Shown one piece after another: positions 1 through 52,999 of a DNA stretch of 64,000 bases. Where the stretch lies: assembly GCA_963743835.1 (NCBI GenBank), contig CAVUQX010000005.1, forward strand, positions 78,246-142,245. Reading direction: 5' to 3'. Under the pieces are notes generated by a model. The model made no database searches, was not told the DNA's origin, and saw nothing but the letters and a program-made list of their open reading frames with translations. Positions within the stretch are counted from its first letter, which is position 1; every line of letters starts with the position of its first letter. Source of the stretch: Candidatus Dormiibacterota bacterium (GTDB lineage: Bacteria > Chloroflexota > Dormibacteria > Aeolococcales > Aeolococcaceae). Made by a program: the position numbers and the translations under genes.

Positions 1-1
1 C

Positions 2-721
2 GCAGTGGTCTTCCACGCGGCTGCGCAGATCGATGTCCGCGAGTCGGTGCGCGACCCGCTGCACGACGCCGACGTCAACGTGGTCGGAACGGTGAATGTC
101 CTGCGCGCGTCGGTGGATGCGGGAACACGCCGCGTCGTCTTCGCCTCCAGCGGGGGCGCGATCTACGGCGATACCGACGTCATCCCCACACCCGAGGACC
201 ATCCCTGCCGGCCGGAGTCGCCGTACGGAACCGCGAAGCTCTGCGCGGAAGCGTATGGCGGTACCTTCAGCCGTCAGGCGGGTCTGGAATTCGTCGCGCT
301 GCGCTACGCCAACGTCTACGGGCCGCGTCAGGATCCGCACGGTGAGGCCGGAGTGGTCGCCATCTTCGCCACCCGGCTGCTGCATGGAGCGCCGGTGGTG
401 ATCAACGGCGACGGGACACAGACTCGGGACTACGTGTACGTTCAGGACGTGGTGCGTGCCAATCTCGCGGCGGTCGACGGACCCGCGGGGATCTACAACA
501 TCGGCACCGGCATCGAGACCGACGTCAACGCGCTCTATCGCATGCTCGCCGAGGCAACCGGCGTCACCGCGGCCGCCGAGAACGGTCCCGCGAAACCGGG
601 TGAGCAGCGACGCTCGTGCCTGGAGACCCAGGGGACGCGTGAGCGTCTCGGCTGGACTGCCTCAGTCACCTTCGACGAAGGGGTGCGCACCACGATCGAC
701 TATTTCAGGACGGCGAGCTAA
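2..721 (+). CDS. NAD-dependent epimerase/dehydratase (UDP-glucose 4-epimerase-like), 5'-truncated
   Basis: HAAAQIDV, SSGGAIYG, YxxxK (YGTAK), RYANVYGPRQ, GDGTQTRDYVYV extended-SDR motifs. Confidence 0.9.
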   Translation, partial: AVVFHAAAQIDVRESVRDPLHDADVNVVGTVNVLRASVDAGTRRVVFASSGGAIYGDTDVIPTPEDHPCRPESPYGTAKLCAEAYGGTFSRQAGLEFVALRYANVYGPRQDPHGEAGVVAIFATRLLHGAPVVINGDGTQTRDYVYVQDVVRANLAAVDGPAGIYNIGTGIETDVNALYRMLAEATGVTAAAENGPAKPGEQRRSCLETQGTRERLGWTASVTFDEGVRTTIDYFRTAS

Positions 722-1155
722 CCGTCGAGCTGCGACCGAGCGCGTTCCAGGTTGGCCGAACTTCGACTTCGCAGGGTCGTGCCTGCGTCGCGCAGCGCGT
801 TGTCCCTCGCAAAGCCGGGTGCTTCTGCAAGTCGCGCCGCCCAGCTCAGCTCATCGACGGCAAGCTCGAGCGCGGTGCGCGCCTCATCAAGGGTTGCATC
901 GACAGGGATCCCGGCGATGCGTTCCAGCGCCTGCGCGCAACCGTCCAGACGGCGCCTGACCGCATGGGGCGAGCTGGCGTCGTCGCCGGTGCCATGTGTC
1001 ATATCGAGCGCCTGGGCGGCCTCGGTCGCGGTACCGAGCACCGCGGCGAGCACCGCGCGCGGGTCTTCTTCGACAGTGGCGCCCGCTCCCATCATCCGGT
1101 AGGCGCCGTAGAGGAAAACGACCACAACAAGCGCGGCGATGACGTAGATCGCCAC
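718..1155 (-). CDS. hypothetical protein with N-terminal membrane anchor
   Basis: 145-aa ORF, hydrophobic N-terminus, directly downstream of infA. Confidence 0.65.
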   Translation of the reverse strand: MAIYVIAALVVVVFLYGAYRMMGAGATVEEDPRAVLAAVLGTATEAAQALDMTHGTGDDASSPHAVRRRLDGCAQALERIAGIPVDATLDEARTALELAVDELSWAARLAEAPGFARDNALRDAGTTLRSRSSANLERARSQLDG

Positions 1156-1170
1156 GGCCGGGTCCGCCGG

Positions 1171-1476
1171 TTACTTGTAGCGGAAGGTGATGCGCCCGCG
1201 CGAGAGGTCGTATGGGCTCAGCTCGACGCGCACGCGATCCCCGATGAGGATACGGATGTAGAACTTGCGCATCTTCCCCGAGGTGTACGCGAGCACATCC
1301 TGACCCGTCTGCAAGCGCACCTTGAACATCGCGTTGGGCAACGGCTCGACAACCGTAGCGTCCATCTCGATGGTCTCTTCCTTGACCTCGACCTGGGGAG
1401 TGCCGTCAGCGACGTCCCGTCGACGGACGGGGCCGCGCCTGCGGGTACTGCCGGGACGGGGTGGGCGTCGTGCCAA
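1171..1476 (-). CDS. infA: translation initiation factor IF-1 with Arg-rich N-terminal extension
   Basis: [54 protein letters not shown]; TTG start preceded by AGAGGAG. Confidence 0.95.
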
Positions 1477-1540
1477 ACAGGGTCTCCTCTAATCGGGTCG
1501 GGCGGTTCGCGAGCGTATCACGGAGCCGTTCCCTGATAAC

Positions 1541-4500
1541 GTGATCTCGATGGCCCCCCCGGTTCGATCTCCATTCCTCGATGCGCTGCGAGAGCGCGTG
1601 CTCGTCTTTGACGGCGCCATGGGCACCAGCCTGCATGCCGAGAACCCCGGCATCGAAGACTACGGCGGAGCGAGGCTGGAGGGGTGGATGGACGGTCTTT
1701 CCATCCATGCGCCGCAGATCGTCGAGCGGGTGCACCGCGGATTTCTTGAGGCGGGGTGCGACGTCATCGAGACCTGCACGTTCCAGGCGACGCGCCCGCG
1801 CCTCGAGGAGTGGGGTCAGGGCGACGTCACCACCGACCTGAACGTGTCGGCCGCGCGCCTCGCCCGGCGGATCGCCGACGAGTACGCCGTCGACGGGCGT
1901 CCGCGCTTCGTTGCCGGGAGCATGGGCCCCACCGGCTTCCTGCCCGCCTCGAGCGATCCGTCGATGAGCCGGCTGGGGTTCGCAGACCTCGTGCCGGTGT
2001 ACCGCGAGCAGGCCGCCTCGCTCATCGAGGGTGGCGTCGACGTCCTCATCATCGAGACGCAGCAGGACATTCTCGAGACCAAGGCAGCCGTCTTCGGCGC
2101 CCGCGAGGCCGCTGCCGCGGCGGGGCGCCCGGTCGCGATCATGACCACCGTCTCGCTGGACGTCACCGGCCGCATGCTGCTCGGCACCGACGCGGCGGCG
2201 GTGCTCGCCGTGCTCGAGTCGCTGCACGTCGACGTCATCGGGTTCAACTGCTCCACCGGGCCGGAGCACATGCGCGAACCCATCCGCTACATCACGTCGC
2301 ACACGACGCTGCCGGTCGCATGCATCCCCAATGCGGGATTGCCGATCAACGTCGACGGCCAGGCACACTACCCGCTGCAGCCGGTGCCCATGGCCACCGA
2401 GCTCGCGAGCTTCGTGAGCGAGTACGGGGTGAGCGTCGTCGGCGGCTGTTGCGGATCGACTCCCGAGCACATTCGCGAGCTGGTGACGCACGTGCGCGCG
2501 GCGACACGGGCGCAGGTGTCGCCGAACGTCGAACCGCGTCTGGCGAGCAGCATGCACGCGATCGACCTGCGTCAGCAGCCGGCGCCGTTGCTCATCGGTG
2601 AGCGGGTCAATGCACAGGGGTCGCGCGCGATCAAGCGTCTGCTCCTCGCGGACGACTACGACGGCATCCTGGGCATCGCGAGGACGCAGGTCGAAGGTGG
2701 CGCGCATGCGCTCGACCTGTGCGTCGCGGTCACCGAACGCAGCGATGAGGCCGAGCAGATGCGCTCGGTCGTCAAGACGCTGCAGATGAGCATCGATGCG
2801 CCGCTGGTCATCGACAGCACCGATGCCGACGTCATCAAGGCGGCGCTCGAGGTCTACCCGGGGCGCGGCATTGTCAACAGCGTCAACCTCGAGAACGGAC
2901 GTGTCCGCTGCGACGCCGTGCTGCCGTCGGTGCGTGACCACGGCGCCTGCGTGATCGCCCTGACCATCGATGAGCAGGGCATGGCACGGACCGCCGAACG
3001 CAAGGTCGAGATCGCGCGCCGCATCCACGACCTCGCCCGTGACGAATTTTCGCTGACGCCGGATCAGCTGATCTTCGACGCGCTCACCTTCACGCTCGCA
3101 ACCGGGGAGGCGGAGTGGATCGAACTCGGCGCGCGAGACCATCGAGGGCATTCGCGCCATCAAGCGCGAGCTTCCCGGCGTGCTCACGGTGCTCGGTGTG
3201 TCCAACGTGTCCTTCGGACTGGCGCCGCACACGCGCCCGATACTCAACAGCGTCTTCCTCCACCACTGTGTCGCGGCGGGGCTCGACGCCGCGATCATCA
3301 ACCCGACGCATGTCGTCCCGTATGGGGAGATCGACCCCCAGGCGCGACGTCTCGCCGAGGAGCTGGTCTTCAACAGCGCCCCCGACGCGCTCACCAAGTT
3401 CATCGCTCACTTCGATGACGGCGCGTCCAGTGGCGGGGCCGGCCTGCCCGAGACGTCGGACCCGTACGAGGGGATGTCGACCGTGGAACGCATCCACGCG
3501 CAGATCCTGCATCGGCGCAAGGACGGCATCGAGGAGCAGATCGACCTCGCGCTGCAGGACCTCGATGCGGTGAGCGTTCTGAACACGGTGCTTCTGCCCG
3601 CGATGAAGGACGTCGGCGACCGCTTCGGTTCCGGGGAGCTCATCCTGCCGTTCGTGCTGCAGAGCGCCGAGGTGATGAAGCGCGCGGTGGCGCACCTCGA
3701 GCAGTACCTGGAGAAACGTGAGGGGTATACCAAGGGCAAGGTTGTGCTGGCGACCGTGTACGGAGATGTGCACGACATTGGCAAGAACCTGGTCAACACC
3801 ATCCTCAGCAACAACGGCTACACCGTGTTCGACCTCGGCAAGCAGGTGCCGCTCAACACCATCATCGAGAAGGCGCTGGAGGTCGAAGCCGATGCGATCG
3901 GCCTGTCGGCGCTGCTCGTCAGCACCAGCAAGCAGATGCCCGCGTGCGTCAAGGAGCTCGACGAGCGTGGTCTCAGCTATCCGCTGATCATCGGTGGCGC
4001 TGCGATCAACCGCGGATTCGGCAGACGCATCCTCTACCTGGACCAGGATCGTGCGTACGAGCCCGGCGTCTTCTACTGCAAGGACGCCTTCGAAGGACTG
4101 GAGACCGTTGACCAGTTGCTCGATCCGGAGCGGCACGACGCGCTGCTGATGCGCGTCCTCGAGGAGGCGCGCGTGCATCGAGTGCGCGAGCACGAGAAGC
4201 TCGAGCGCCGCAACGCCGCGGCCGCCGGCGCCGCGGTAGTACCCACGCAGAGCGCGGTCCGGCGGAATGCGCCGATCCCCACCGTCCCGTTCTGGGGGGC
4301 GCGGGTGCTGCGCAACATTCCCATCTGGGACGTGTACCCGTTCATCGATCGCAACTCGCTCTACAAGATGAGCTGGCAGTTCCGCGGTGTTCGCGATCCC
4401 GCCAAATGGGAGGACCTCCTCCACAGTGAGCTCGAGCCGCGCCTGCAACGCTCGATGGAGGAGGCGGTGCGCGACGGCTGGCTGCAGCTCGAGGCCGTCT

Positions 4501-5105
4501 ACGGATACTGGCCGGCACTCGCCGACGGCAACACGGTGGTCGTGTACGACCCGACGGACATCGACGCCGAGCTCGGGAGGTTCACGTTCCCCCGCCAGTC
4601 CGAGCAGCATCGGCTTTGCCTCGCGGACTACATCCGCCCTGCCGAGGATGCTGCCGACGGTGAGCGAGACGTCATCGCGCTCCAGGTGGTCACCACAGGT
4701 CCGGGCGCGTCCGAGCTGTCCAACCGCCTGCAGGTCGATGGTGCCTACGACGACATGCTCCGGATTCATGGCTTCGCAACGCAGATGGCCGAGGCCACGG
4801 CCGAGTACGTGCATCACAGGATCCGTCGCGAGCTGCGCCTCGGCGAGGACCAAGGTCGCCGCTACTCCTGGGGCTACCCCTCATGCCCCGATCTCGAGGA
4901 CCACGAGATCCTCATGCGGATCGTCCCCGCCTCCGACATCGGCGTCACCCTCACCGAGGGGTACCAGTTCGTACCGGAGCAATCTACCGGCGCAATCGTC
5001 ATGCACCATCCCGAGGCTCGCTACTTCGCCGTGTATGGCGGGGCGGCGATCGAGGAGGACGCGCCAGGAGCGCCGGAACCGGTGCTCGTGGCGCCTGGAG
5101 TTTAG
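1541..5105 (+). CDS. metH: B12-dependent methionine synthase (one +1 indel at ~3122)
   Basis: DGAMGT, GFNCSTGP, GGCCG (Hcy domain); IGERVN (pterin domain); GDVHDIGKN (B12 domain); RYSWGYPSCPDL, PEQST (activation domain); split over ORFs 1541-3418 and 3180-5105. Confidence 0.95.
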
Positions 5106-5114
5106 AAAAGGTCC

Positions 5115-5252
5115 GGTCCGGGGGCCTGTCACGGCGGGGACCCCTCGCCGCTCAGCTGCCCGGTCTGACTCCCCATCGCACAGTGTTCTGGGACCGTCTT
5201 GCGCGGCGCCGGTCAGCAGGTCGGCGCTTCCCCCCGCCGTGCCACCCGGACC
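5115..5252 (-). ncRNA. structured repeat family A, copy 1 (putative ncRNA or non-autonomous element)
   Basis: Closely similar reverse complement of 51238-51373; nested stems with compensatory changes; lies between convergent gene ends. Confidence 0.6.
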
Positions 5253-5289
5253 AGTCATTTATGGATCCCAGTCGCGGCGTGCCTGTTGC

Positions 5290-5736
5290 CTACTTCGCTT
5301 GTTCCTTTGCCTTGGCGATCTCGGCCAGTTCGGCTCGCGCGGCAGCGGCGATGTCGGCGCCGGTATTGGCGTGTCCGTTGATGCCCCAGCCGCCTTCAGG
5401 TGATTCGGTGATGAGCACCCAGGTGCGCTCCGCAAGGGTTGGGTCCTCGGCTGCTGTGGCGACGATTTCGGTCAGCTCCTTCACGACGCCGAGCTGCTTG
5501 TCCCGGTCGAGGACGCCGATGGGCGTGAGGACCTGGACACGTACGTAGTTGCTGTCACCGGACACGTTCGACAGCGAATCCTCGGGAAGGTCGTGGATGA
5601 AGGCGGCGGTGTTGTCCTTGAAGAGTGAGATTGGCGGGACCTTCTCCCAGCGCATCACGGCGGCTGCGAGGTTCTGGGCGAGCTCGTGCTTCGCTTTGAA
5701 CGTTCCGGTGGCGGCGTAGACGTCGATCATCGGCAT
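5290..5736 (-). CDS. tautomerase family protein (4-OT/cis-CaaD-like)
   Basis: N-terminal Pro (MPMIDV), two beta-alpha-beta repeats, WVLITE..GGWGING. Confidence 0.8.
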   Translation of the reverse strand: MPMIDVYAATGTFKAKHELAQNLAAAVMRWEKVPPISLFKDNTAAFIHDLPEDSLSNVSGDSNYVRVQVLTPIGVLDRDKQLGVVKELTEIVATAAEDPTLAERTWVLITESPEGGWGINGHANTGADIAAAARAELAEIAKAKEQAK

Positions 5737-5755
5737 GGCCGGGCTCCTTCAGGAG

Positions 5756-5811
5756 TTATGGTGGTCGTCATAGTGACGCAGTGGAGCATGCACTATGACG
5801 ATCGTCATAGT
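5756..5811. promoter_or_regulatory. TetR-type operator palindromes
   Basis: Perfect 20-bp palindrome ACTATGACGATCGTCATAGT (5792-5811) and degenerate copy TTATGGTGGTCGTCATAG (5756-5773) between divergent genes. Confidence 0.75.
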
Positions 5812-5836
5812 CAAGGGGTCGGGCAAGGCCATCCGC

Positions 5837-6406
5837 ATGGCAGGTGACAGCCGCGAGCGGATGGTCCGGAGCGCTGCCTCGCTCATCGCCTCGAAGGGGG
5901 TCAGCGCAACCTCCTTCTCGGATGTCGTGGCCGACAGCGGCGCTCCTCGCGGCTCCATCTACCACCACTTTCCAGAGGGAAAGCAGCAGCTGGCGACGGA
6001 GGCGATCCAGTGGACATCGGATCGCGTCGTCGCATACCTTCGCGCCGGCACCGAGACGACCCCGGAAGCCGTTCTCGCCAGGTTCATCCAGCTCTGGCGT
6101 CAGGTCGTCGTCGCCTCCAGCGCATCGTCAGGCTGTGTCGTCGCCGGCGTCGCGCTCGACACCGGAGCCGAGGACGGTCTCATGGACGTCGCCCGCGAGA
6201 CCTTTCGCTCCTGGGAGGCGATCCTCGCCGGTCAGCTCGAGCAGACCGGCATCCCGGCCGGCCGAGCGCGAGGCATCTCCCTCGCAACGCTCGCCGGGAT
6301 GGAGGGTGCCCTGATCCTCTGTCGAGCCGAAGGCTCCGTTCAGCCCCTCGACGACGTGGCTGAGGAGCTGATGCGCCTTCTTCCGGCGGTCCCAGCTACG
6401 GGATAG
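5837..6406 (+). CDS. TetR/AcrR regulator (LmrA/YxaF-like)
   Basis: SRERMV..GAPRGSIYHHFPEGK HTH; GC motif; start placed downstream of the operator. Confidence 0.9.
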   Translation: MAGDSRERMVRSAASLIASKGVSATSFSDVVADSGAPRGSIYHHFPEGKQQLATEAIQWTSDRVVAYLRAGTETTPEAVLARFIQLWRQVVVASSASSGCVVAGVALDTGAEDGLMDVARETFRSWEAILAGQLEQTGIPAGRARGISLATLAGMEGALILCRAEGSVQPLDDVAEELMRLLPAVPATG

Positions 6407-6416
6407 CGATGCGGGC

Positions 6417-7076
6417 TCAAACCATCCCGTTCTGGTAGGCATAACGGACCGCCTGGGCGCGATCGCGCGCGCCTGTCTTGGAGAAGACGCGGTTGATATG
6501 CGTCTTGACCGTGGCATTGCTGAGGAAGAGCGCGGTCGCGATCTCGCTGTTCGACATCCCAGCGGCGATCAACTTCAGCACCTCGACCTCGCGCGAGCTC
6601 AGGCCGTCGGGAGGTGGCTGCGAGGGTACGGGCGTACGGGTTTGCCCCTCGAGTACCGCGGCGATGAGCCGCTGTTGAATCGCAGGGTCCAGGTGGGTTC
6701 TTCCGGCGGCAAGCGCGCGGATGGCCTGCTCGATCTCCTCGGCACTCGCGTCCTTGGTGAGATACCCACGCGCACCAGCCTTGAGCGCGGGAAACAATGA
6801 CTTGTCATCGGCGTAGGTCGTGAGGACCAGCACCTGCGTTTCGGGAAGTGATGCGCGGATGTGACGGGTGGCCTCGGCTCCTTCCATACCCGGCATCCGA
6901 AGATCCATGAGCACGACATCCGGACGCTCGCGTCTGGCGCTCTCCAGAGCGGCCACCCCATCACCCGCGCTCCCTACGACCTCAACTCCGTCGATGAGTC
7001 CGACGAGCATCGTCAGTCCATCGCGCACCACTCGCTGATCGTCTGCGATGAGCACGCGGATCGGCGCTTCGGTCAT
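6417..7076 (-). CDS. NarL/LuxR-family response regulator
   Basis: IADDQ, DVVLMDLRMP, GYLTKD, LSSREVEVL..SNATVKTH. Confidence 0.95.
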   Translation of the reverse strand: MTEAPIRVLIADDQRVVRDGLTMLVGLIDGVEVVGSAGDGVAALESARRERPDVVLMDLRMPGMEGAEATRHIRASLPETQVLVLTTYADDKSLFPALKAGARGYLTKDASAEEIEQAIRALAAGRTHLDPAIQQRLIAAVLEGQTRTPVPSQPPPDGLSSREVEVLKLIAAGMSNSEIATALFLSNATVKTHINRVFSKTGARDRAQAVRYAYQNGMV

Positions 7077-8300
7077 GCGGGCACGACGATCTCGACACGC
7101 CAGCCGTGCTCGATCGGGCCGGCCTGAACGGTGCCGCCCACCCGTTCGAGCCGCTCGCGCAAGCCGGCAAGCCCGCGCCCGCCGCCGACATCGCGCAGGC
7201 CTTCGGCAGCTCGAAGATCAGATCCGGATGAGACGCGATCCTCGACGATCAGACGGGTCGAATCCGTGTCATACCGGAGGCGAATGTCGACTGTGGCGCC
7301 CGGCGCGTATCGAGCCACATTGGTCAGCGCCTCCTGGACGCCGCGATACAGCGCGAGGCCGGCGTCCGGCGGGATCGTCCGCGCGGCTCCCTCAACGCTC
7401 AGCTGAACGTGGGCGTTCATGTCGTTCCTGAAGCTCGTGATCAGCGACCCAATCTGCGCGACCCCGGGGAGTTCCTCGCCGCGTAACGCGCCGACGGCCT
7501 GGCGAGCGCTGACCAGACCGTCCTTCACCAGCTCACCTGCGCGGTCGATGGCGGCGCGCGTTGGCCGCGTTGCACGATCGCGCTCGGCGAGCTTCCGTGC
7601 CGCCTGGAGCTGGATTGCCGCCGCAGAGAGTGAGTGTGCGAGCACGTCGTGCAGCTCACCGGCGATGCGGCTGCGTTCAGCCATGGCCGCAGCCCGCGTC
7701 TGCTCGTCGCGTGCGTCCTCGAGTTGAGCCAGCAGCAATTCCACTCGATCCTGATTCGCACGCGACTGTCTCATGAAATAGCCGACGAATCCGAGCATCG
7801 CCAGCAGGAGCGCGGCAGCGAGGAATGCCACGGGCGCGCTTCCGGCGAGTGCTGCCGCGCTGACCGACGCGATGGCAACAGCGATGCCGATCGCCACACC
7901 AGACTTCAACGGGAGACGGACGAGCGCCATCCACACGGCCGCGCCACCGGCGAGGTCGGTTGCACCCTGAGGCTGCAGCGCCACAAGAGCGGCACCGGCT
8001 GCGCCCATCACCGAGACCACCGATGCCTGGAACCAGCGCTGTCGCGCGGCGAAGCCAGGTCTGATCGCCTCAGCGAGGGCTCCCGCGAAAGCGACGAGCG
8101 CGAGCGTGACACCCAGGCCGGGGCCCTGGAATGCAGGGTAAGGACGCTCGGCAACTGCGCTCGCCACGACGACAACGATCACAGCGAGTCCCAGCGGTCG
8201 CAGCGCGTCTCGCTGGCGTTGCACTCGTTGTTCGGCACGCTCGCGAGCCTCAACGACCCGCCGAACTCTCGCCGTCTGAAGCCGTCGACAGGTCGGTCAT
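7073..8300 (-). CDS. HisKA_3 sensor histidine kinase (probable start ATG 8300 with +1 indel at ~8265)
   Basis: Multi-TM N-terminus, ERSRIAGELHDVLAHSL, QEALTN, GRGLAGLRER; removing one base at GAACTC 8263-8268 joins ATG 8300 (with GGAG upstream) in frame. Confidence 0.9.
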
Positions 8301-8397
8301 GCTGGTGAGCTCTCCGGTGGCGAGCATTCGCTGCAGACAATAGAACGCCCCCGGCCCATGCGAGGGATCCCGAGGCGTTCCAAGGCTGCGCGGTCGA

Positions 8398-8925
8398 TCA
8401 GAGTGCAGCACCGAAGGCGCTGATGGTCGCTGCGGGGACCGCCTGGACGACGCGGCCGCGGAGGGACACGGTCACCACGCGAACCGTGACTTCGCAGATC
8501 GCCATGGAGACCAGGGCCACCGGCCAGGCCGCTGCGCTGATCTGGTGGGAGATGCTGAAGCTGCGAATCGCCGGCTCGGCGCCGTGGGTCACGACGAACG
8601 CGAAGACGATCCTCGAGGAGATTCCGGCGATGAGAAGCGCGCCGGCGACCCAGCCAACTCCAGCGAGTGCGAAGCCGTCGTTCCCGCGGCGTACGTGGGT
8701 CGCGAACCCGCTCAGGAGACCGAGCGAAACGCCGGCGCCTGCCAGGAGCCCGATGAGCACGAGGTCGTTGCCGGACACCGGGATCGTGTGCAGGTACTGC
8801 CGGGCGACGAAGAACAAGATCACCAGCGGGATGACCAGCGCCCTGCGATCCAGCCGCTTCCCGCGGGCTTGCCAGCACACCATGAGGATGAATCCGGCGT
8901 TGATCAGGTAGTCCGTCGTGGTCAT
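8398..8925 (-). CDS. DUF1453/CcdC-like membrane protein
   Basis: 175-aa multi-TM protein, GGAGG RBS, adjacent to the two-component pair. Confidence 0.65.
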   Translation of the reverse strand: MTTTDYLINAGFILMVCWQARGKRLDRRALVIPLVILFFVARQYLHTIPVSGNDLVLIGLLAGAGVSLGLLSGFATHVRRGNDGFALAGVGWVAGALLIAGISSRIVFAFVVTHGAEPAIRSFSISHQISAAAWPVALVSMAICEVTVRVVTVSLRGRVVQAVPAATISAFGAAL

Positions 8926-9001
8926 CGGGGCTCCTCCGTGAATCTGCGGTGTCGTCCGAAGTGGACGATCGCCATGATTCGGCGGCGGCGCTCCGAAGTC
9001 G

Positions 9002-9061
9002 TCCGCCCTTGGGTTGGACTTCTGGGAGGCACTCAACCGGCTCGCTCAACCCGTGGGTTGA
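9002..9061. promoter_or_regulatory. putative NarL/LuxR binding sites
   Basis: 7-2-7 palindrome TCAACCC-GT-GGGTTGA (9046-9061) and degenerate TCCGCCC-TT-GGGTTGG (9002-9017) upstream of the DUF1453 gene. Confidence 0.55.
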
Positions 9062-9070
9062 TCAAGCGCG

Positions 9071-9097
9071 TGACACTCGGGCACGCCGAGTGTGTCA
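9071..9097 (-). terminator. hairpin after the 9111-9404 ORF
   Basis: ACACTCGG-gcacg-CCGAGTGT stem just past the stop codon; no clear U tract. Confidence 0.45.
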
Positions 9098-9110
9098 GGA
9101 GATCCTGGCT

Positions 9111-9404
9111 CTACTCGGTGTAGCGCCTGATGCGGTCGTCCTCTTCCCCGTGCTCCGCCTGGTACAGGCCGCACGATTCAGGCTCGGACACACACGGCGG
9201 CACGGGATGGCGTCCGGTGAACTTGTGGGTCCGCCGATCGACGTGACAGTCGGCCTTGTAGCGGGTCAGCAGACCGAATGGGCCGGCACTGTCCCTGATG
9301 ATCTGTTCGAGGTACGGGCAACGACGGCCGCGCGGCCGGGGCGGCGCCGACTGGCGCTGCGGCTCTGGCCTGCCGCGGGGCGGCGGCGGTGGTTCTGCTC
9401 GCAT
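9111..9404 (-). CDS. small Pro/Arg-rich, 4-Cys hypothetical protein
   Basis: 97-aa C-terminal part of ORF 9111-9917 (MRAEPPP..CPYLE..C..C..C); fills the gap and is followed by a hairpin. Confidence 0.5.
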   Translation of the reverse strand: MRAEPPPPPRGRPEPQRQSAPPRPRGRRCPYLEQIIRDSAGPFGLLTRYKADCHVDRRTHKFTGRHPVPPCVSEPESCGLYQAEHGEEDDRIRRYTE

Positions 9405-9427
9405 CGACCCCCCGAGTGTAGAACTCC

Positions 9428-9793
9428 TTACGGGGCGAGCATCGACTGGATGCGCGAGGCGAGTTCCTTGATCTTGAAAGGCTTCGCGAGCGTCTGGACG
9501 TTTCCGTAGGCCTCGAGCTTCGGCGCGGTCGACGCATTCACCAGGGCGCTGACCACCAGGACCTTCGGGTCGCTGCCGTGATTGGACCGGATCCGCTCGA
9601 GCACCTGCGTTCCGGAAAGGTCGCCAGGAAGCATCAGGTCGAGGAGCACCAGGTCCGGCTGGAACTCCACGAAGGCCGCCAGGCCCTCGTCGCCGCTCTT
9701 CGCCACCTTCACCTCGTAGCCCTCCATGGTGCAGAGCAGAGATTCGATGTCGGCGAGCGCGTAATAGTCCTCGATGATCAGGACTTTCTTCAT
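9428..9793 (-). CDS. single-domain response regulator (receiver)
   Basis: KKVLIIED, PDLVLLDLMLP, SA, LAKPF. Confidence 0.9.
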   Translation of the reverse strand: MKKVLIIEDYYALADIESLLCTMEGYEVKVAKSGDEGLAAFVEFQPDLVLLDLMLPGDLSGTQVLERIRSNHGSDPKVLVVSALVNASTAPKLEAYGNVQTLAKPFKIKELASRIQSMLAP

Positions 9794-9932
9794 GGCGGTA
9801 CTCGTCGCTGGGCTCATTTGGGGATCCGGCCGAATATAGCACGGGGGTTTCCGGCGCTCCCGGTGAGTGTGACCAACCCGTCAACCACACGGCGCACCGC
9901 CGACACAGGGGCGCCATCCGGCGCCGCCTCGA

Positions 9933-11099
9933 TCAGATCGTGCGGTCGATGAGGGTCCCGGTCCCGAGGCCGCCGCCGCAGCACATCGTCTGGAGCCCGT
10001 AGCGACCGTCGCGACGCTCGAGCTCGTGGAGCAGCGTGGTCATGAGCCGCGCCCCGCTGGCTCCGAGCGGATGGCCAAGCGCGATCGCCCCGCCGTTGAC
10101 GTTCACCCGCTCCATGTCGGGGTGATGCTCGCGCTCCCAGGCAAGGACCACCGGCGCGAATGCCTCGTTGACCTCGAAGAGGTCGATGTCATCGATCTTC
10201 AGCCCGGATCGCTCGAGCAGCTTGGCGGTGGCGGGAATCGGTCCGGTGAGCATGGTCACCGGGTCCACGCCGACCACCACCTGCGCGGCGATCCGAGCTC
10301 GGGGCGTGATCCCGAGCGCAGTGGCGCGTTCAAGTGACATCAGAAGCACCGCGGCCGCGCCGTCGGTGATCTGCGAGCTGTTGCCGGCGTGGAGGATGCC
10401 GTCCGGCCTGAAGGCAGGCTGCAGGGGGGCGAGTGACTCAACGGTGGTATCCGGACGGATGCCCTGGTCCTGGCTGATCACCCGACCGTCGCCATTGGCC
10501 CCGACGACCACGGGCGCGATCTCGCGGTCGAAGCGTCCATTCGCCTGGGCGTCACCCGCGCGGCGCTGCGATCGAGCGGCAAACTCGTCCGCCTGCTCGC
10601 GGGTGATGTGCCACATCTCCGCGATCATCTCGGCGGACAGCCCCTGGGGCACGAGGTTGTAGAGCTCGAGCAACTCCGGCGGGAACGGCGTGCCTGGTCC
10701 CTGGAACACGGTGGTGCCCATGGGCACGCGGCTCATGCTCTCGACGCCTGCGGCAATGGTGATGTCGCACACGCCCGACTGGATGAGGTTGGCGGCGAAA
10801 TGGATCGCCTGCTGCGACGACCCACACTGGCGGTCGACGGTGGTTGCGGGCACCTCGACCGGGAACCCTGCGGTGAGCACCGCCTGGCGCGCGATGTTGA
10901 CCGCCTGCTCGCCGGTCTGCATGACACACCCGAAGACGACGTCCTCGACCATCGCCGGGTCGATGGCCGCACGACTGGTGACCTCGCGCAGCACGTGGGC
11001 GGCGAGGATGACCGGATGGACGTCGCGGAGATCGCCGTTCCGCTGGTTGCCGCGGCCCATCGGGGTTCGGACGGCTTCGACGATCACGACGTCAGTCAT
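9933..11099 (-). CDS. acetyl-CoA C-acyltransferase (thiolase)
   Basis: [33 protein letters not shown]. Confidence 0.95.
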
Positions 11100-11149
11100 G
11101 GTTCACCTGTAGTTTGTTCGGAGCGCCCACCTTAGCAGCGGGAGCCGCG

Positions 11150-12751
11150 TCAGCCGCCAAAGCGGTAAACAGCTTCCACTACCGGTCGCGGCGCCGACGC
11201 GTCGAGGGCATTGGCAGGGCCTCGCTCCTGAGCCACGAGCTTCCATCCAGACGGCGGTGGCGCGTCGACGATGTCGTAGGCACTGAGCACGAGCACGTCA
11301 CCGGCAGCGGGATGCCCGGTATACAGCGTCGCGACCGGGATGACCTGCATCCCCAGAGCGGCGAGCCCCGGGGTGGCGTCGTCGGTCTCCTGCTGTCGCG
11401 GCGGTGGGGGCAGATACGCGAAGAACGCCTCGATGTACGGAGGATCGAGGTTGCTCGACAGGTAGATCGGGTGCGAGCCAGCAACCTCGCGCGCGGTGGT
11501 GATCGCCGCGATCTCGCCGGTGTCGAAGTCCACGGCCGCACGGTTGGGATAGGCGGCGTAGAGGTCGACCGTGTAGAAGGTCGCCTGAGCGACGACGCCC
11601 ACCGCCAGGATGCCGAACACAAAGGCTTTCGCACTGCTGCGGCCGGCGAGCACCGAGCGGAGGCCATCGGCGCCGAGCACGGCGAGGACAACCAGGAAGG
11701 GGAGCATTCCCGACGAACGCAGTGCGTGGGGCGTCCCATTGTTGGTCAGTGCCGCCGCCACCGGCGCGAGCACGATGCATACGACCAGGAATCGGACCAA
11801 CGGTTCTCGCCGCCGCTGCCAGCACACCAGGATCCCGGCGATCAGGAGCGGCGCCATGACCCAGAGCAGCATCCCGCCGACCTCGGTGTTCTGACGGGGA
11901 TTGCCGTCGCCCTGCGTGAAGAGGAAGTTGGGGCTGAAGTAGGCGAGGTAGTTGGCGAGAAAGCGATCGATCACCGTGCTGAGCGGGGCACCATCAGACC
12001 AGATGCTGATCGCGGTGAAGCGCCCGGTCAGAGCTCCAGGGTTGAGCAGCGCGTAGACGCCGAGCACGCCGTAACCGGCGGCGATCGGGACGAGTGCGCG
12101 CCACCAACCGGGCGTCTTTGCGAGACCCCAGCCAACCGCCAGGGCGATCGCGATCAGGAGGACCTCGAGCCGTGCGGTGGTGTAGCCGTAGATGGCGAAC
12201 GCGAGCAGGGTGCCGGCGATCCCGAACCGGCGAGGCGTCGGCTGCCGTCCGGCGAGGCACCAGACTGCAGCCGACAGCAGCGCCACCCAGGAGATGGTCT
12301 CGAAGCCGACCCGGCTTTCGATGACCAGCCAGGGAGTGAAGCCGGTCAGCGCCAGGGTGCCCAGCGTGATCCACCTCGAGCCGGTCATCCGCCAGGCGGC
12401 GGCGGTGAGGAACCCCACCACCGCGAGACCGAAGAGCGCCGCCGGGAAACGCTCCACCGCGACCGTCAGGGGTAGAAAGCGGACCAGTGCCGCGACCGCA
12501 TAGACATAGATCGGGTTCTTGTATTCGCCAAACGCCTCGAAGAAGAGGGGGAAGTGGATCCCGTGCTCGTCGACGCCGAAGTGGGCGATCGTCCAGGCGT
12601 TGTACCCGATCGACGCTTCGTCGACATAGAGACCCGGGGGCGACCCGGAGAGGTCGACAAGGCTGCGCACCACCACCACGGCCCCGAGGACGGCGACCGC
12701 GCCGACCCAGATCCGGCGGTGCGACCGGCCGGCGTCCGGTTCAGCCGTCAC
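11150..12751 (-). CDS. GT-C fold glycosyltransferase (ArnT/PMT, GT39/83-like)
   Basis: PPGLYVDEASIGYNAW, DEHG..P, YK.P.Y.Y, many TM helices. Confidence 0.8.
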   Translation of the reverse strand: MTAEPDAGRSHRRIWVGAVAVLGAVVVVRSLVDLSGSPPGLYVDEASIGYNAWTIAHFGVDEHGIHFPLFFEAFGEYKNPIYVYAVAALVRFLPLTVAVERFPAALFGLAVVGFLTAAAWRMTGSRWITLGTLALTGFTPWLVIESRVGFETISWVALLSAAVWCLAGRQPTPRRFGIAGTLLAFAIYGYTTARLEVLLIAIALAVGWGLAKTPGWWRALVPIAAGYGVLGVYALLNPGALTGRFTAISIWSDGAPLSTVIDRFLANYLAYFSPNFLFTQGDGNPRQNTEVGGMLLWVMAPLLIAGILVCWQRRREPLVRFLVVCIVLAPVAAALTNNGTPHALRSSGMLPFLVVLAVLGADGLRSVLAGRSSAKAFVFGILAVGVVAQATFYTVDLYAAYPNRAAVDFDTGEIAAITTAREVAGSHPIYLSSNLDPPYIEAFFAYLPPPPRQQETDDATPGLAALGMQVIPVATLYTGHPAAGDVLVLSAYDIVDAPPPSGWKLVAQERGPANALDASAPRPVVEAVYRFGG

Positions 12752-13471
12752 GCAACCGCGGCGGCGACGAAATCCGCGAACAGCCGGCGCGCCCAGTCAC
12801 GCTCGAGGTAGAGCTCCTCGGGGTGGCACTGGAGTCCGACGACGAATCGTCGCCCCGGGTGCTCCACCGCCTCGACGAGCCCGTCGTGCGCGCGGGCGGT
12901 GACCACGAGATCCTCACCCAGGTTGCGCAGCGCCTGGTGATGCATGCTGTTGACGTCGACGAGCTTCGCACCCGCGATGGCGTGGAGTCGCGATTCCGGC
13001 GTCGACGTCGATGTTGTGCGTGAGCTCCTGACGGGAGCCGTCCTGCGAGTGATTGTGGTCGGTCGCACCCTGCGTTCCGACGTCCTGCCAGAGCGTCCCG
13101 CCCAGCGCGACGTTGAGCAGCTGCGCCCCGCGGCAGATCGCGAGCACCGGTTTGTCCGCGGCGAGCGCCCACTTCGCGAGCAACATCTCGGCGCGATCGA
13201 GCTCGTTGTCCACCTCGACGGCACAATCCGCGCGCGTCTCCTCTCCATAGAGCTTCGGCTCGACATCAGGACCACCGGGGAGGCACAGGCCGTCACAGAG
13301 GTCGAAGAGCGCGCGCAGTCGCGGCTCGGAGAGTGATGCGCTGATTCCCAATGGAGTCCCGCCGGCACTCTCGAGCGCGTCGAAGTAGGCGCGGTTGCGG
13401 GCGAGGTCGGCAGGAAGCCCCTTCTCGTGCAGCACGCGAAGCGTGAGACCGATCACCGGCGATCGAGGCAT
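12748..13471 (-). CDS. peptidase C26 / gamma-glutamyl-GABA hydrolase family (one indel at ~12993)
   Basis: LPGGPDV, AICRGAQ, VNSMHHQ, QCHPE glutamine-amidotransferase triad over two frames. Confidence 0.9.
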
Positions 13472-43431: not shown

Positions 43432-44589
43432 ATGGAGCCGATGAGACAAGCTCTCCGTATCGCCCGAGCCGTGATCGGGTCCCCCTGGACCCGGGTCAGC
43501 GGAACGGTCGTCGGGCTGGCCATCCTGGCGCGGACCATCAACCTGCCGCAGGCGGTGGCAAGCCTCGCGCATGCCGATCCCCTGTGGATCGCCGCCGCTC
43601 TCGGGCTCACCATGCTCGCGGTCGCCGCCAGCGTCGTCGAATGGGGGGTGCTCCTGCGCACCGCCAACGCGCCTGCCGGCGCCGGCCCGGGTGCGGTGCT
43701 GAGCTGGCGCCGGCTGAGCTCCTCTTACCTCCAGGGCATGTTCTTCACCCAGATGCTGCCCGCCGGTGTCGGCGGCGATTGCATGCGCACCGTCGAGATG
43801 GGCCGCCAGGTCGGCCACGGGAACGTCCTCGCCTCGCTTGCCGGCAGCCGCCTTGCAGGCATGCTGGGGATGACCTGCTGGGGGATCGCCGCCGCGATCC
43901 TGCTCCGGGCGCTGCTTGGCACCGGGGTCGTGATCGTGATCGCGGCGCTCGCCATGGCCGTGGTGATCATCTGGCTCATGGCACTGAGCGCCGACCGCCT
44001 CGTGCCCCATCGGTTGCTCGCCCGCGTCTCGGGAGCACTGAGCCGTGGCGTCCGTTCCTTCAGTGATGCCTTCGCCGGCTACCGCCGCCACCCCCACGCC
44101 GTCGCCCAGTCGCTGCTGGTCGGCGCTGCCGGGTGGGGCTTCAACCTGCTGGCCCTGAGCGTCGCCGCCCGTGCGATCGGGGTGAACCTGAGCTGGACGG
44201 TCCTCGCCGTCACCATCCCGATCACGCTGCTGGTCGCGCTCGCGCCCTTCAGCATCAATGGGCTCGGCCTCCGCGAAGGGGTCCTGGTCGCCCTGCTCTC
44301 CCACAGCGGCGTCTCGGTCGCGCATGCCGGCGCGATCTCGGTGCTCATCGATCTGCAGATGATCCCGTTCGCCGTCCTCGGCGCCGTGCTCTGGTCGCGG
44401 CACCGTCGGAGCAGCCGCTCCCCGGTGGAGCTCGCCATCGAGGTCGCCGCCACCGACGATGTCGCGCTCGCGGGACTGAAGCCTGGTGCGCCTAGACTTC
44501 AGCGGCGTGACCCGGCAGTTCAGCGACTTCCTGGCAGCCCACGCGGCGCGGATCGCCGACCTGTGGGCGAGGCAGATATCACCGGCTGA
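43432..44589 (+). CDS. lysylphosphatidylglycerol synthase TM / flippase-like protein (3' end uncertain)
   Basis: LPAGVGGD..R, PFSINGLGLRE, multiple TM helices. Confidence 0.8.
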   Translation: MEPMRQALRIARAVIGSPWTRVSGTVVGLAILARTINLPQAVASLAHADPLWIAAALGLTMLAVAASVVEWGVLLRTANAPAGAGPGAVLSWRRLSSSYLQGMFFTQMLPAGVGGDCMRTVEMGRQVGHGNVLASLAGSRLAGMLGMTCWGIAAAILLRALLGTGVVIVIAALAMAVVIIWLMALSADRLVPHRLLARVSGALSRGVRSFSDAFAGYRRHPHAVAQSLLVGAAGWGFNLLALSVAARAIGVNLSWTVLAVTIPITLLVALAPFSINGLGLREGVLVALLSHSGVSVAHAGAISVLIDLQMIPFAVLGAVLWSRHRRSSRSPVELAIEVAATDDVALAGLKPGAPRLQRRDPAVQRLPGSPRGADRRPVGEADITG

Positions 44590-47039: not shown

Positions 47040-47040
47040 C

Positions 47041-47901: not shown

Positions 47902-47956
47902 GTGCGCTGTCAGACCTGCGATGCGGAAGGGTGCAGCGCCGACCGCAGAGACGGGT

Positions 47957-48817: not shown

Positions 48818-49036
48818 CCGGTCCCCGAACACGCTGAGGCGGTCTTCTGGCATCACAAGGATCATACGAACCCGCGCCAGCGGGTTCCTCCAGCGTCATG
48901 ACGATCATACGAAGGCGTGAACGGTTGAATTCGGGGTAGACTGACTACTGTCTTGCGTTCGTCCTCTCGCGCGCGGTTTGGTAGACCGCTCGCCGCAAGG
49001 CCCCGTCCCGTCGCAACGGCGCCGGTCGATGAGGCC

Positions 49037-50203: not shown

Positions 50204-50219
50204 AGTCCGCCCGACAGAG

Positions 50220-50999: not shown

Positions 51000-51187
51000 G
51001 CCAACTCCCCCAGGATCTCCTCGACATCCTCGCCTGTCCGAGTTGCCGCGGACCGCTCGTGGTCGAGCCGGAGTCACTGCGATGCGATGTCTGCCGGCTG
51101 CGCTACCGCGCCGACAACGGCATCCCGGTGATGCTGATCAGCGAAGCGGAACACTTCGACAGTGAGGCGCCGCCTGCGACGGACTGA
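50996..51187 (+). CDS. Trm112-like (UPF0434) protein
   Basis: LLDILACPSC..L.C..C..Y...GIPVML..EA. Confidence 0.9.
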   Translation: MSQLPQDLLDILACPSCRGPLVVEPESLRCDVCRLRYRADNGIPVMLISEAEHFDSEAPPATD

Positions 51188-51237
51188 ACCGGAGAGTGCG
51201 GAGCCTAGTCTGCAAGCGGCCGCTGATATCTCAGGGC

Positions 51238-51373
51238 CGTCCGGGTGGCGGGGCGGGGGGAAGCGCCGATCTGCTGACCGGCGCCGCGCAGGACGGTCCC
51301 AGAACACTGGTCGGTTGGGAGTCAGACCGGGCAGCTGAGCGGCGAGGGGCCCCGCTCCGACAGGCCCCGGACG
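51238..51373 (+). ncRNA. structured repeat family A, copy 2
   Basis: Homologous to 5115-5252 (reverse complement); lies within a segment flanked by the 13-bp direct repeat GAGAGTGCGGAGC. Confidence 0.6.
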
Positions 51374-51386
51374 AGAGTGCGGAGCT

Positions 51387-52968: not shown

Positions 52969-52999
52969 GATCGGAGGGACCCTACCATAGACTGCGACG

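What the first reader, a model, noticed from the sequence alone, without database searches (positions are those of the whole stretch)
5115..5252. Uncharacterised ~137-nt structured element in two copies with compensatory base pairs (family A)
Seen: 5252->5115 and 51238->51373 share a scaffold (..GGAAGCGCCGA[C/T]CTGCTGACCGGCGCCGCGCA[A/G]GACGGTCCCAGAACACTG-variable-GGGAGTCAGACCGGGCAGCTGAGCGGCGAGGGG..). Stem differences preserve pairing: the outer stem is GGTCCGGG/CCCGGACC versus CGTCCGGG/CCCGGACG, and the second is CACGGCGGGG/CCCCGCCGTG versus CGGGGCGGGG/CCCCGCTCCG. That gives three double compensatory changes plus one G.U, which indicates the strand. Inside are a GCGCCG/CGGCGC hairpin and a long arm (CCGC/GCGG, CGGTC/GACCG) with sequence-conserved internal loops and a variable tip. 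Both copies sit between convergent stop codons with no transposase nearby. Inference: a multi-copy ncRNA, ribozyme or guide/bridge-RNA-like non-autonomous element served by a protein in trans.
Basis: partly seen in the sequence, partly recalled or inferred. Interest (0 to 1): 0.8.

Follow-up and report, generated by a model that had tools for sequence, protein, structure and literature searches.

The report
Gene-invading hairpin repeat of Dormibacteria
A small hairpin-forming DNA repeat, found in only one genus of uncultured soil bacteria, sits between genes and also in frame inside housekeeping genes, much like the "selfish" palindromic elements of Rickettsia.

Summary
The two window copies are 90% identical, and they belong to a family of 11 copies in this genome and 6-10 copies in four related genomes. 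No Rfam family matches. The element is one long imperfect hairpin: three stems (P1, P2, P3), two sequence-conserved asymmetric internal loops and a swappable tip. The tip gives short forms of about 80 nt and long forms of about 125-170 nt. Pairing is strongly supported: 94.5% of cells are paired against 40-50% in slid controls, and 17 of 32 pairs show double changes. It is not an ordinary ncRNA gene. Six of the 11 copies lie in frame inside ORFs, in either orientation: the Lon linker, DnaE2 (twice), and the tails of NadC, NuoE and S16. Sister-family Lon and DnaE2 orthologues lack the inserts. The family was found only in this genus (36/36 genomes), not in 39 sister-family or 150 phylum-sample genomes. 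In the Lon linker of 30 species, 16 carry it in sense, 9 carry a different lineage in antisense, and 4 keep deletion scars. These states are scattered over the gene tree, and elements can be 97-99% identical where flanks are about 86% identical. No transposase lies next to any copy. Best reading: a non-autonomous, Rickettsia-RPE-like mobile palindromic element whose mobilising mechanism is unknown.

The parts
5112..5256 (-). Copy c1, long form, matching the whole covariance model. The hairpin extends outward to about 5100-5270 in this subfamily.
   Evidence: R1 score 144.8 bits. BLAST matches of 1-171 nt at 91-95% in G010 and G016. MFE -82.7 kcal/mol against -76.8 for the complement.
5245..5252 (-). 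c1 P1 5' arm GGTCCGGG, which pairs with 5115-5122 CCCGGACC.
   Evidence: The outer P1 pairs covary (GC:70 and CG:12 at pair 8-180).
5232..5241 (-). c1 P2 5' arm C-ACGG-CGGGG, which pairs with 5130-5139 CCCCG-CCGT-G. The middle 4 bp are the hypervariable, always complementary block.
5227..5231 (-). c1 internal loop B, 5' side GGAAG. It lies opposite 5140-5145 AGGGGT. The loop is purine-rich, asymmetric and conserved in sequence.
5123..5129 (-). c1 internal loop A, 3' side ACAGGCC. It lies opposite 5242-5244 TGG.
5222..5226 (-). c1 P3 5' arm CGCCG, which pairs with 5146-5150 CGGCG.
   Evidence: Other copies covary to CCCCG/CGGGG.
5151..5221 (-). c1 variable apical arm. Short forms carry an 18-20 nt GCGC hairpin here instead.
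51234..51376 (+). Copy c2, long form, matching the whole model.
   Evidence: R1 score 141.5 bits.
51238..51245 (+). c2 P1 5' arm CGTCCGGG, which pairs with 51366-51373 CCCGGACG.
51249..51258 (+). c2 P2 5' arm CGGGGCGGGG, which pairs with 51350-51359 CCCCGCTCCG and includes one G.U.
51264..51268 (+). c2 P3 5' arm CGCCG, which pairs with 51340-51344 CGGCG. Loop B is 51259-51263 with 51345-51349. Loop A is 51246-51248 with 51360-51365. The arm is 51269-51339.

Best explanation
Family A is a genus-specific, non-autonomous palindromic insertion element, of the same kind as the Rickettsia palindromic elements (RPE) and hairpin-type bacterial MITEs. One strand folds into a long hairpin. A conserved core carries stems P1, P2 and P3 and two asymmetric loops whose sequence is conserved. 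That core carries a swappable apical module, giving short (about 80 nt) and long (about 125-170 nt) forms. Shown here: copies were inserted into intergenic spacers, which includes the two window copies in 3' spacers between convergent genes. Copies were also inserted in frame, in either orientation, into disordered linkers and C-terminal tails of housekeeping proteins, where they are read through as low-complexity peptide. Copies are gained, lost by internal deletion and replaced at the same sites among closely related species. Inferred: the conserved loops and the sequence-independent pairing are what a trans-acting protein recognises on a single-stranded (DNA) hairpin of one defined strand during mobilisation. 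Conservation would then reflect selection on the element lineage rather than a host function. The enzyme and the integration chemistry are unknown. In intergenic copies the hairpin probably also acts passively as a 3'-end structure in transcripts.
For: (1) Dispersed multi-copy family. There are 11 R1 matches in the own genome and 10, 6, 8 and 6 in four near-complete relatives. (2) The hairpin is real. On 84 distinct sequences, 94.5% of cells are paired against 40.3-49.7% when partners are slid. 17 of 32 pairs have both sides changed, in 278 cells, and 0 of 500 shuffles reach the observed values. The Lon set, retrieved by the flanking protein only, gives 93.3% against 39-43%, with 12 pairs changed on both sides. 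(3) Strand preference. In stems P1, P2, P3 and P5 there are 24 G.T/T.G cells against 3 A.C/C.A. The given strand folds 3-6 kcal/mol better than its complement in 3 of 3 copies tested. (4) Insertion into genes. Six of the 11 copies lie inside ORFs: the Lon linker, DnaE2 twice, and the NadC, NuoE and S16 tails. A degenerate piece lies in LigD, and a full copy lies in the LigD of G032. Sister-family Lon orthologues (4 of 5 aligned) and DnaE2 orthologues (5 of 5 at site a; 4 of 4 covering site b) lack the inserts. (5) Restricted distribution. BLAST finds it in 36 of 36 genus genomes. The model finds nothing in 39 sister-family genomes or in 150 other genomes of the phylum sample, which span 97 other genera. 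(6) Gain, loss and turnover. The c1 site is filled in G000, G010, G016 and G214. G017 holds an internal-deletion remnant, G006 holds a short form, and G001 has a 38-nt spacer with no element. Of 30 Lon orthologues, 16 carry it in sense, 9 carry a different lineage in antisense, 4 keep scars and 1 contig is cut. Well-supported branches on trees of both flanks force at least 6 state changes. (7) The antisense elements of G017 and G019 are 99% identical, while flanks are about 86% identical and 0.63 identical at third codon positions. Element identity tracks host divergence only weakly, with r=0.19-0.31. (8) No enzyme lies beside copies. None of the neighbours examined is a transposase.
Against: No target-site duplication or terminal TA was seen at the one filled/empty comparison. 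No parent IS with these ends was found. Y1/HUH transposase was found in 0 of 6 genomes and reverse transcriptase in 0 of 5. IS110 was found in only 3 of 5 genomes, never adjacent, and it is missing from the complete genome G030, which still has 6 copies. So no mobilising protein is identified. Copy number is low and most sites are shared across the genus, which is unlike a bursting MITE. In 12 Lon orthologues the element is more conserved (0.91/0.89/0.80 at codon positions 1/2/3) than third positions of the flanking domains (0.59-0.63) or than the surrounding linker (0.42-0.60). That could mean a host-level function rather than selfish turnover. The patchy Lon states could also arise from short-patch homologous recombination between species plus deletions, with no element-specific mobility. 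All sequences come from metagenome-assembled genomes, and polishing with mixed reads could inflate identity between copies. The 100% conservation of the 5' core in alignment A4 is partly circular, because 80 loci were chosen by an exact 5' pattern.
Confidence: 0.6

Rival explanations
1. It is a host-useful structured nucleic-acid module kept by purifying selection at each site. The conserved loops would bind a host protein, for example one involved in chromosome organisation, or an RNA-binding regulator of stress and repair genes. Mobility would be only its origin.
For: The loops and the 3' core, which played no part in choosing the sequences, are 95-100% conserved over 84 sequences. Element third codon positions are 0.80 identical against 0.59-0.63 in the flanking Lon domains, and the surrounding linker is hypervariable. 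One Lon orthologue shows compensatory double changes: GGCA/TGCC in G000 against GGAG/CTCC in most others, and no other copy in G000 carries GGCA. Several host genes are stress or repair genes: lon, ligD and dnaE2/imuB.
Against: Four of 29 informative Lon orthologues have deleted the element and left only scars. Nine carry it in the opposite orientation, where neither the mRNA nor a fixed DNA strand presents the same loops. Sister species differ in state. Copies occur in sense and antisense inside ORFs at 3:3 in this genome. No candidate binding protein is known. Near-identity across diverged hosts is explained equally well by recent spread.
Confidence: 0.15
2. It is a cis-acting RNA element of transcripts, such as a 3'-UTR stabiliser, a terminator hairpin or an RNase processing site, as shown for ERIC and Correia elements. 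It would work on the strand the reader proposed.
For: G.U pairs outnumber A.C 24 to 3 in the solid stems, and the given strand folds better. Copies c1-c4 lie 8-52 nt after a stop codon of a gene on the same strand. c1 and c4 end in a short T run. Element-like sequence occurs in contigs of three metatranscriptome runs; that call does not show transcription.
Against: The terminator scan found 0 sites around c1, and most copies have no T run. Three of those four 3' spacers are convergent, so orientation is uninformative there. Six of 11 copies are inside ORFs, half of them antisense to the mRNA. Nine of 25 Lon copies are antisense.
Confidence: 0.12
3. It is a self-cleaving ribozyme, or a guide/bridge RNA (IS110) or omega RNA (IS200/605) that serves a nuclease or recombinase.
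For: Only the general look: a conserved core with a variable, always-paired 4-bp block, and sequence-conserved internal loops.
Against: No Rfam family matched at gathering score on the window or at E up to 10 on the element. No copy lies beside an IS110, TnpB or IscB gene. IS110 is absent from G000 (72% complete) and from the complete G030. The variable 4-bp block shows no relation to flanking target sequence by inspection of 8 loci. The in-frame, read-through location is incompatible with self-cleavage of the mRNA.
Confidence: 0.02

Closest known systems
Rickettsia palindromic elements (RPE)
   Same: Genus-restricted palindromic repeats of about 105-146 bp that fold into long stem-loops. They occur in intergenic DNA and are fused in frame into conserved housekeeping genes. 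No transposase is known and target duplication is uncertain (PMC2229807 and PMC10969869, passages read).
   Different: There is no sequence relationship, and the element here is GC-rich. Copy number is far lower: 6-11 per genome here against the 44 integrations quoted for R. conorii. The core has two invariant asymmetric loops and a hypervariable paired block. Short and long apical modules are exchanged at the same site. Insertions recur in both orientations in one linker (lon). The host is a free-living soil lineage, not an obligate intracellular one.
Hairpin-type bacterial MITEs (Correia/NEMIS, ERIC/IRU, Coxiella QMITE2)
   Same: Small non-autonomous repeats with inverted ends and long and short size variants. 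They lie mostly in 3' or intergenic positions, sometimes inside ORFs, and their sites are conserved between strains (PMC2229807 passages; PMC5896051 abstract).
   Different: Those have TA termini and/or direct target duplications, tens to hundreds of copies, and in some cases an identified IS relative. None of these was found here.
REP/BIME elements with RAYT (Y1 HUH) transposases
   Same: GC-rich imperfect palindromes that act as single-stranded hairpins recognised on one strand. They often lie between convergent genes.
   Different: REPs are 20-40 nt, carry a GTAG or CGTC tag (PMC3733652, abstract only) and occur in high copy number beside a RAYT gene. Here the element is 80-170 nt, has no such tag, has 6-11 copies, and Y1_Tnp was found in 0 of 6 genomes.
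Integron attC sites
   Same: Both have a folded single-strand substrate with two paired boxes, asymmetric unpaired bases that mark the strand, and a variable terminal structure that sets a total length of about 57-141 nt. This description of attC is recalled knowledge.
   Different: No RYYYAAC/GTTRRRY boxes are visible in the sequence, there are no cassette arrays, and copies are dispersed in and beside housekeeping genes.

Membership tests
Any Rfam 15 RNA family (including ribozymes, HEARO/omega RNA, Y RNA and Chloroflexi motifs) | Covariance-model match at or near the gathering score | tested here: not met
   0 matches on the 64-kb window at gathering score. With E up to 10 on 5000-5400, the only match was sX9 at E=0.97, outside the element.
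RPE-like palindromic insertion element | Dispersed palindromic repeat of about 100-150 nt that folds as one long stem-loop | tested here: met
RPE-like palindromic insertion element | In-frame insertions in conserved protein genes that are absent from orthologues of related taxa | tested here: met
   Lon and DnaE2 twice are shown against orthologues that lack the insert. For the NadC, NuoE and S16 tails the evidence is ORF continuity only.
RPE-like palindromic insertion element | Sequence homology to Rickettsia RPE families | not tested
   No RPE sequence was available from a tool, so the claim is of kind, not of homology.
MITE (IS-derived) | Terminal inverted repeats that match an autonomous IS in the same or related genomes | tested here: not met
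   All half-matches pair up within 200 nt or less. The one 1.26-kb inverted pair encloses DnaE2 coding sequence. There is no match in the plasmid or phage collections. ISfinder could not be searched.
MITE (IS-derived) | Direct target-site duplication | tested here: inconclusive
   No direct repeat was seen at the c1 junctions (TAG|AAAAGG ... CCAG|TCATTT) when compared with G015 and G001. The 'empty' sites are diverged, or are themselves remnants.
MITE (IS-derived) | High copy number | tested here: not met
   6-11 copies per genome in 5 genomes.
REP/RAYT system | RAYT (Y1_Tnp, PF01797) gene present | tested here: not met
   0 of 6 genomes, two of which are single-contig. The control genomes gave hits.
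IS110 bridge-RNA or IS200/605 omega-RNA element | The RNA is encoded next to its recombinase or nuclease gene | tested here: not met
   The neighbours of all 11 own copies, and 32 flanking ORFs in relatives, are housekeeping genes. IS110 genes in G019 lie at 2.24 and 2.47 Mb, away from the copies.
Intrinsic terminator | GC-rich stem followed directly by a U tract | tested here: not met
   0 terminator-like sites in 4900-5500. Only c1 and c4 have a 4-T run after an outer stem extension.
Integron attC | R''/R' boxes (GTTRRRY) and cassette arrays beside intI | tested here: not met
   The element ends read GCGGG.../...CCCGC and copies are dispersed. intI itself was not searched for.

The most novel reading that the evidence does not exclude
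The element is a still-active hairpin element that encodes no enzyme and repeatedly 'homes' to the same few safe sites. These sites are disordered linkers and tails of conserved housekeeping proteins and a few 3' spacers. It inserts in either orientation, replaces resident copies, and spreads between species of the genus. It would be mobilised by a yet-unidentified protein that reads two invariant asymmetric loops on a single-stranded hairpin. That would be a site-specific intragenic mobile element of a kind not described before, and a natural source of in-frame linker variation.
Probability: 0.25. Interest if true: 0.7.

Novelty: new member of a known kind. Interest (0 to 1): 0.5.

Why it matters
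In-frame 'selfish' palindromes in essential genes are mostly known from Rickettsia. Finding the same behaviour in a free-living, uncultured soil lineage suggests it is a more general way for small mobile DNA to persist, by hiding in disordered protein linkers and tails. The lon linker also gives a rare natural series of insertion states among about 30 species: sense copy, antisense copy and deletion scar. That series could be used to work out how such elements move when they encode no enzyme. For annotators it explains odd low-complexity inserts in Lon, DnaE2, LigD, NuoE, NadC and S16 of these genomes. It also warns against calling the repeat an sRNA gene.

Tried and rejected
- **Rfam:** scans gave nothing.
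- **Loose regex:** a regex for the half-motifs over the genome matched hundreds of unrelated GC-rich sites and was useless. It was replaced by covariance model R1.
- **Y RNA idea:** it was prompted by the CUGGUCCG 5' end and UUUU 3' end of c1 and c4. No TROVE/Ro gene was found in the 72%-complete genome, there was no Rfam hit, and only one subfamily has that end, so the idea was dropped.
- **Candidate mobilising proteins:** Y1 HUH transposase was not found and reverse transcriptase was not found. IS110 is present in 3 of 5 genomes, is not adjacent to any copy, and is not in all carriers.
- **Replication-strand bias:** the 10 copies of the single-contig genome G019 are a mix of + and -, and the DnaE2 pair is one of each, so there is no pattern. 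dnaA and GC skew were not examined.
- **In-situ inversion at lon:** rejected. Sense and antisense copies of sister species are 78-85% alike when compared in the same element orientation and only 62-64% alike as reverse complements.
- **Variable 4-bp block as a guide to the target:** no match to flanks by inspection of 8 loci.
- **Other collections:** viral contigs gave 0 pattern matches. Plasmids and phages gave no BLAST match.
- **Public RNA runs:** only small shares of the words were held, and only contigs were available. Element-like sequence is present in three metatranscriptome runs with other flanks, but this shows neither transcription nor ends.
- **Promoter and terminator scan:** 0 sites.
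- **Inner long arm:** no consensus fold was obtained.
- **Not used:** the one metagenome-contig scan.

Full report
**1. Observation**

The two stretches are present as described. They align at 90.4% over 136 nt with E=1.6e-38. Both copies lie between convergent stop codons. Copy 1 is between a MetH-like ORF and a tautomerase-like ORF. Copy 2 is between a Trm112-like ORF and a ThiF/rhodanese ORF. No transposase family appears among the Pfam hits of coding-like ORFs in window 1-13000 and 44000-59000. Seven of the 20 ORFs scanned had no hit.

**2. Family and anatomy**

BLAST finds 9 places in the own assembly, which is 2.93 Mb in 6 contigs and 72% complete. A covariance model built from nine copies (R1) finds 11. 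The copies come in two sizes.

- Long forms measure 124-135 nt after the 11 flank bases of the model are trimmed. One subfamily has an outward stem extension that brings it to about 170 nt.
- Short forms measure about 78-83 nt.

All copies share one core, written here 5' to 3':

- P1: GCGGG, or GGTCCGGG in one subfamily
- loop A, 5' side: UGG
- P2: C-NNNN-CGGGG
- loop B, 5' side: GG(A/C)AG
- P3: CGCCG
- the apical module
- P3': CGGCG
- loop B, 3' side: AGGGG(U)
- P2': CCCCG-N'N'N'N'-G
- loop A, 3' side: ACAGG(A/C)
- P1': CCCGC

The four-base-pair NNNN block takes nine different values among the 11 copies of this genome and is complementary in every one.

The pairing test used 89 matches, 84 of them distinct. 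They came from this genome, from relatives and from public records.

| Measure | Value |
|---|---|
| Cells forming standard pairs | 94.5% |
| Same, with 3' partners slid by 1-3 columns | 40.3-49.7% |
| Pairs with changes on both sides | 17 of 32 (278 cells) |
| Shuffles reaching the observed values | 0 of 500 |

One caveat applies. Eighty of the loci behind this alignment were picked by an exact match to a 5' core pattern, so the invariance of the 5' core is partly circular. The 3' core was not used for selection and is 95-100% conserved. The Lon set described below was collected without reference to the element.

P3 and a CCGG/CCGG stem are supported by covariation. The interior of the long arm has no consensus fold.

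**3. Strand**

In the well-supported stems, 24 cells are G.T or T.G and 3 are A.C or C.A. These counts are cells, not independent events. The given strand folds 3-6 kcal/mol more stably than its complement in all three copies tested. So the structure that is maintained is that of one strand of the element.

**4. Not a known RNA family**

Rfam 15 gives no match on the window at gathering score. On 5000-5400 at E up to 10, the only match lies outside the element, at E 0.97. No match was found in the plasmid or phage collections. Viral contigs gave no pattern match.

**5. Where the copies sit**

Five of the 11 copies in this genome are intergenic.

- c1 and c2 are the window copies.
- c3 lies after a C39-like peptidase gene and upstream of glnA.
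- c4 lies between a glyoxalase-like gene and a second glnA.
- c6 lies 58 nt upstream of mdh.

The other six lie inside ORFs.

- One is in the linker of a 909-aa Lon, between the N domain and the AAA+ domain. It is in sense orientation and encodes ...EAGGGTGGSAD...ERRGDPVPTGPAA....
- Two are in a 1272-aa DnaE2-like polymerase next to an ImuB-like gene, one in sense and one in antisense.
- One is in the C-terminal extension of the NadC ORF, in antisense.
- One is in the C-terminal extension of the NuoE ORF, in antisense.
- One is in the Ala/Pro/Glu-rich tail of ribosomal protein S16. It is in sense orientation and in the same reading frame as in Lon.

A degenerate piece lies in the LigD linker, and G032 has a full copy at that place inside an 827-aa LigD ORF.

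Sister-family orthologues lack the inserts. In Lon, 4 of 5 aligned have a short linker, and the fifth has a long low-complexity linker with no recognisable element. In DnaE2, 5 of 5 aligned orthologues lack the insert at site a. At site b the four that cover it lack it. For NadC, NuoE and S16 I rely only on ORF continuity past the Pfam domain.

The flanking genes of the copies in relatives are the same housekeeping genes. None of the 32 ORFs scanned is a transposase.

**6. Distribution**

Record titles of public contigs that carry the core pattern are almost all 'Candidatus Dormibacterota/Dormibacteraeota' MAGs. The model confirms 72 of the 80 loci fetched. The 8 misses all carry titles other than Dormibacterota. 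Two confirmed loci carry other labels (L047, L085).

| Group searched | Method | Genomes with a match |
|---|---|---|
| Same genus | BLAST | 36 of 36 |
| Sister family | R1 model | 0 of 39 |
| Phylum sample (97 other genera, including 5 same-family genomes of other genera) | R1 model with stricter filters | 0 of 150 |

Copy number in four near-complete genus genomes is 10, 6, 8 and 6. The tool's tallies for the sister family include the two genomes flagged as unpublished (G039, G044). No alignment or tree of mine uses them.

**7. Dynamics**

*The c1 site.* The spacer after metH is filled only in G000, G010, G016 and G214. G017 keeps a remnant that lost everything between two GGTG repeats. G015 keeps only part of one end. 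G006 has a short form in the same spacer. G001 has a 38-nt spacer with no element. I saw no target-site duplication.

*The lon linker.* I fetched 30 genus orthologues by their AAA+ domain only. Their states are as follows.

| State in the lon linker | Orthologues |
|---|---|
| Element in sense | 16 |
| Element in antisense | 9 |
| Short in-frame scar only (for example QEA|PGPAA) | 4 |
| Contig cut | 1 |

- The sense and antisense copies are different lineages of the family, so they are not inversions of one another. They are 78-85% identical in the same element orientation and 62-64% identical as reverse complements.
- They sit at opposite ends of the linker. Some genomes carry a scar of the other type.
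- On maximum-likelihood trees of the coding DNA on either side of the linker, the states are scattered. Well-supported branches force at least 6 changes. Strongly supported sister pairs differ: G016/G017, G018/G009 and G032/G002.
- The antisense elements of G017 and G019 are 99% identical over about 165 nt. Their flanks are about 86% identical, and 0.63 identical at third codon positions. The identity drops within about 15 nt of the element ends.
- Over all pairs, element identity correlates weakly with host divergence, with r of 0.31 and 0.19.

*Other sites.* Short and long forms replace each other at orthologous sites: nuoE, nadC and the c1 spacer.

**8. Conservation**

In 12 Lon orthologues, mean pairwise nucleotide identity differs sharply between the element and its surroundings.

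| Region | Codon positions 1 / 2 / 3 |
|---|---|
| Element | 0.91 / 0.89 / 0.80 |
| Surrounding linker | 0.42-0.64 over all positions |
| Flanking domains | 0.93-0.98 / 0.93-0.98 / 0.59-0.63 |

The Lon-embedded copies keep 93.3% of cells paired, with 12 pairs changed on both sides. There are two possible causes. The element may be constrained at nucleotide level wherever it sits, or copies may be younger than the genes around them because they are replaced. The Lon turnover favours the second, but it does not exclude the first.

**9. Search for a partner protein**

| Family | Genomes with a match |
|---|---|
| Y1 HUH transposase | 0 of 6 (including two single-contig genomes) |
| Reverse transcriptase | 0 of 5 |
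| TROVE/Ro | 0 of 1 |
| IS110 | 3 of 5 |

IS110 was not found in G000 or in the complete genome G030, which still carries six copies, and it is never adjacent to a copy. No mobilising enzyme is identified.

**10. Expression**

Only contigs of public runs were available, and only small shares of the stretch were held. Contigs from three metatranscriptome runs contain element-like sequence with other flanks, including short forms. This shows neither transcription nor RNA ends. No promoter-like or terminator-like site was found at c1.

**11. Verdict**

The interpretation as an ncRNA, ribozyme or guide RNA is not supported.

The best reading is a genus-specific, non-autonomous palindromic insertion element of the RPE/hairpin-MITE kind. 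The comparison rests on passages of PMC2229807 and PMC10969869, on the abstract of PMC5896051 and on the abstract of PMC3733652 as listed. The original RPE papers were not read.

It differs from that kind in four ways:

- low copy number
- an invariant-loop core with a swappable tip
- no visible target duplication
- recurrent occupation of the same intragenic linker in both orientations

Two full-text searches that included the Dormibacterota names listed no paper on repeats or ncRNAs of this lineage. Their term settings (any 2 of 5 or 6 terms) did not restrict the listing to this lineage, so this is weak evidence that the family is unpublished. Supplements were not consulted.

Noticed in passing
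window 1493-3415 (+) and 3072-5102 (+): The B12-dependent methionine synthase is split over two overlapping reading frames. One carries S-methyl_trans and Pterin_bind; the other carries B12-binding and Met_synt_B12. This is either a natural split or a frameshift in the assembly.
   Followed up: no
L010:1875-2075 (-) and L010:1490-2014 (-) (G000 contig C3): rpsP (S16) starts in one frame (MVKIRLKRMG...) and continues in another (...IGFYDPLPNP...). This is an apparent frameshift, possibly a homopolymer error of the assembly. The long Ala/Pro/Glu tail carries the element.
   Followed up: partly
L138:187-4005 (-) and L138:4369-5919 (-) (G000 contig C4): This is an ImuB-like plus DnaE2-like mutagenesis cassette. 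The polymerase carries two element inserts 1.26 kb apart in inverted orientation, and both have the same variable block GTCG/CGAC.
   Followed up: partly
L198 and L203, just 5' of the antisense element in lon: Imperfect 18-nt tandem repeats of the element's 5' end (unit about GGGTGGCGACTCAGGAGC) encode PAPESP-like peptide repeats. The copy number differs between G017 and G019.
   Followed up: no
L162 (G017), spacer after metH: A remnant of the c1-type element in which everything between two GGTG tetranucleotides is deleted, leaving P1 around an 8-nt loop. It looks like slippage across the hairpin.
   Followed up: partly
G010:C12:186013-186146 and 186191-186324; G016:C15:612821-612959 with 612980-613018: Two c2-type copies lie in tandem 45 nt apart in G010. 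In G016 a full copy lies next to an inverted partial copy. These are local duplications of the element.
   Followed up: no
L047 and L085: Two public MAG contigs titled 'Candidatus Acidiferrales' and 'Candidatus Saccharimonadales' carry full copies. L047's copy lies inside a long ORF in the element's sense orientation and is identical over the aligned 138 nt to the copy in L034. This suggests mislabelled or misbinned contigs.
   Followed up: no
every genus genome: Most of these genomes show a second Lon match (about 61-68% identical in the AAA+ region), probably a paralogue. I did not check whether it carries the element.
   Followed up: no
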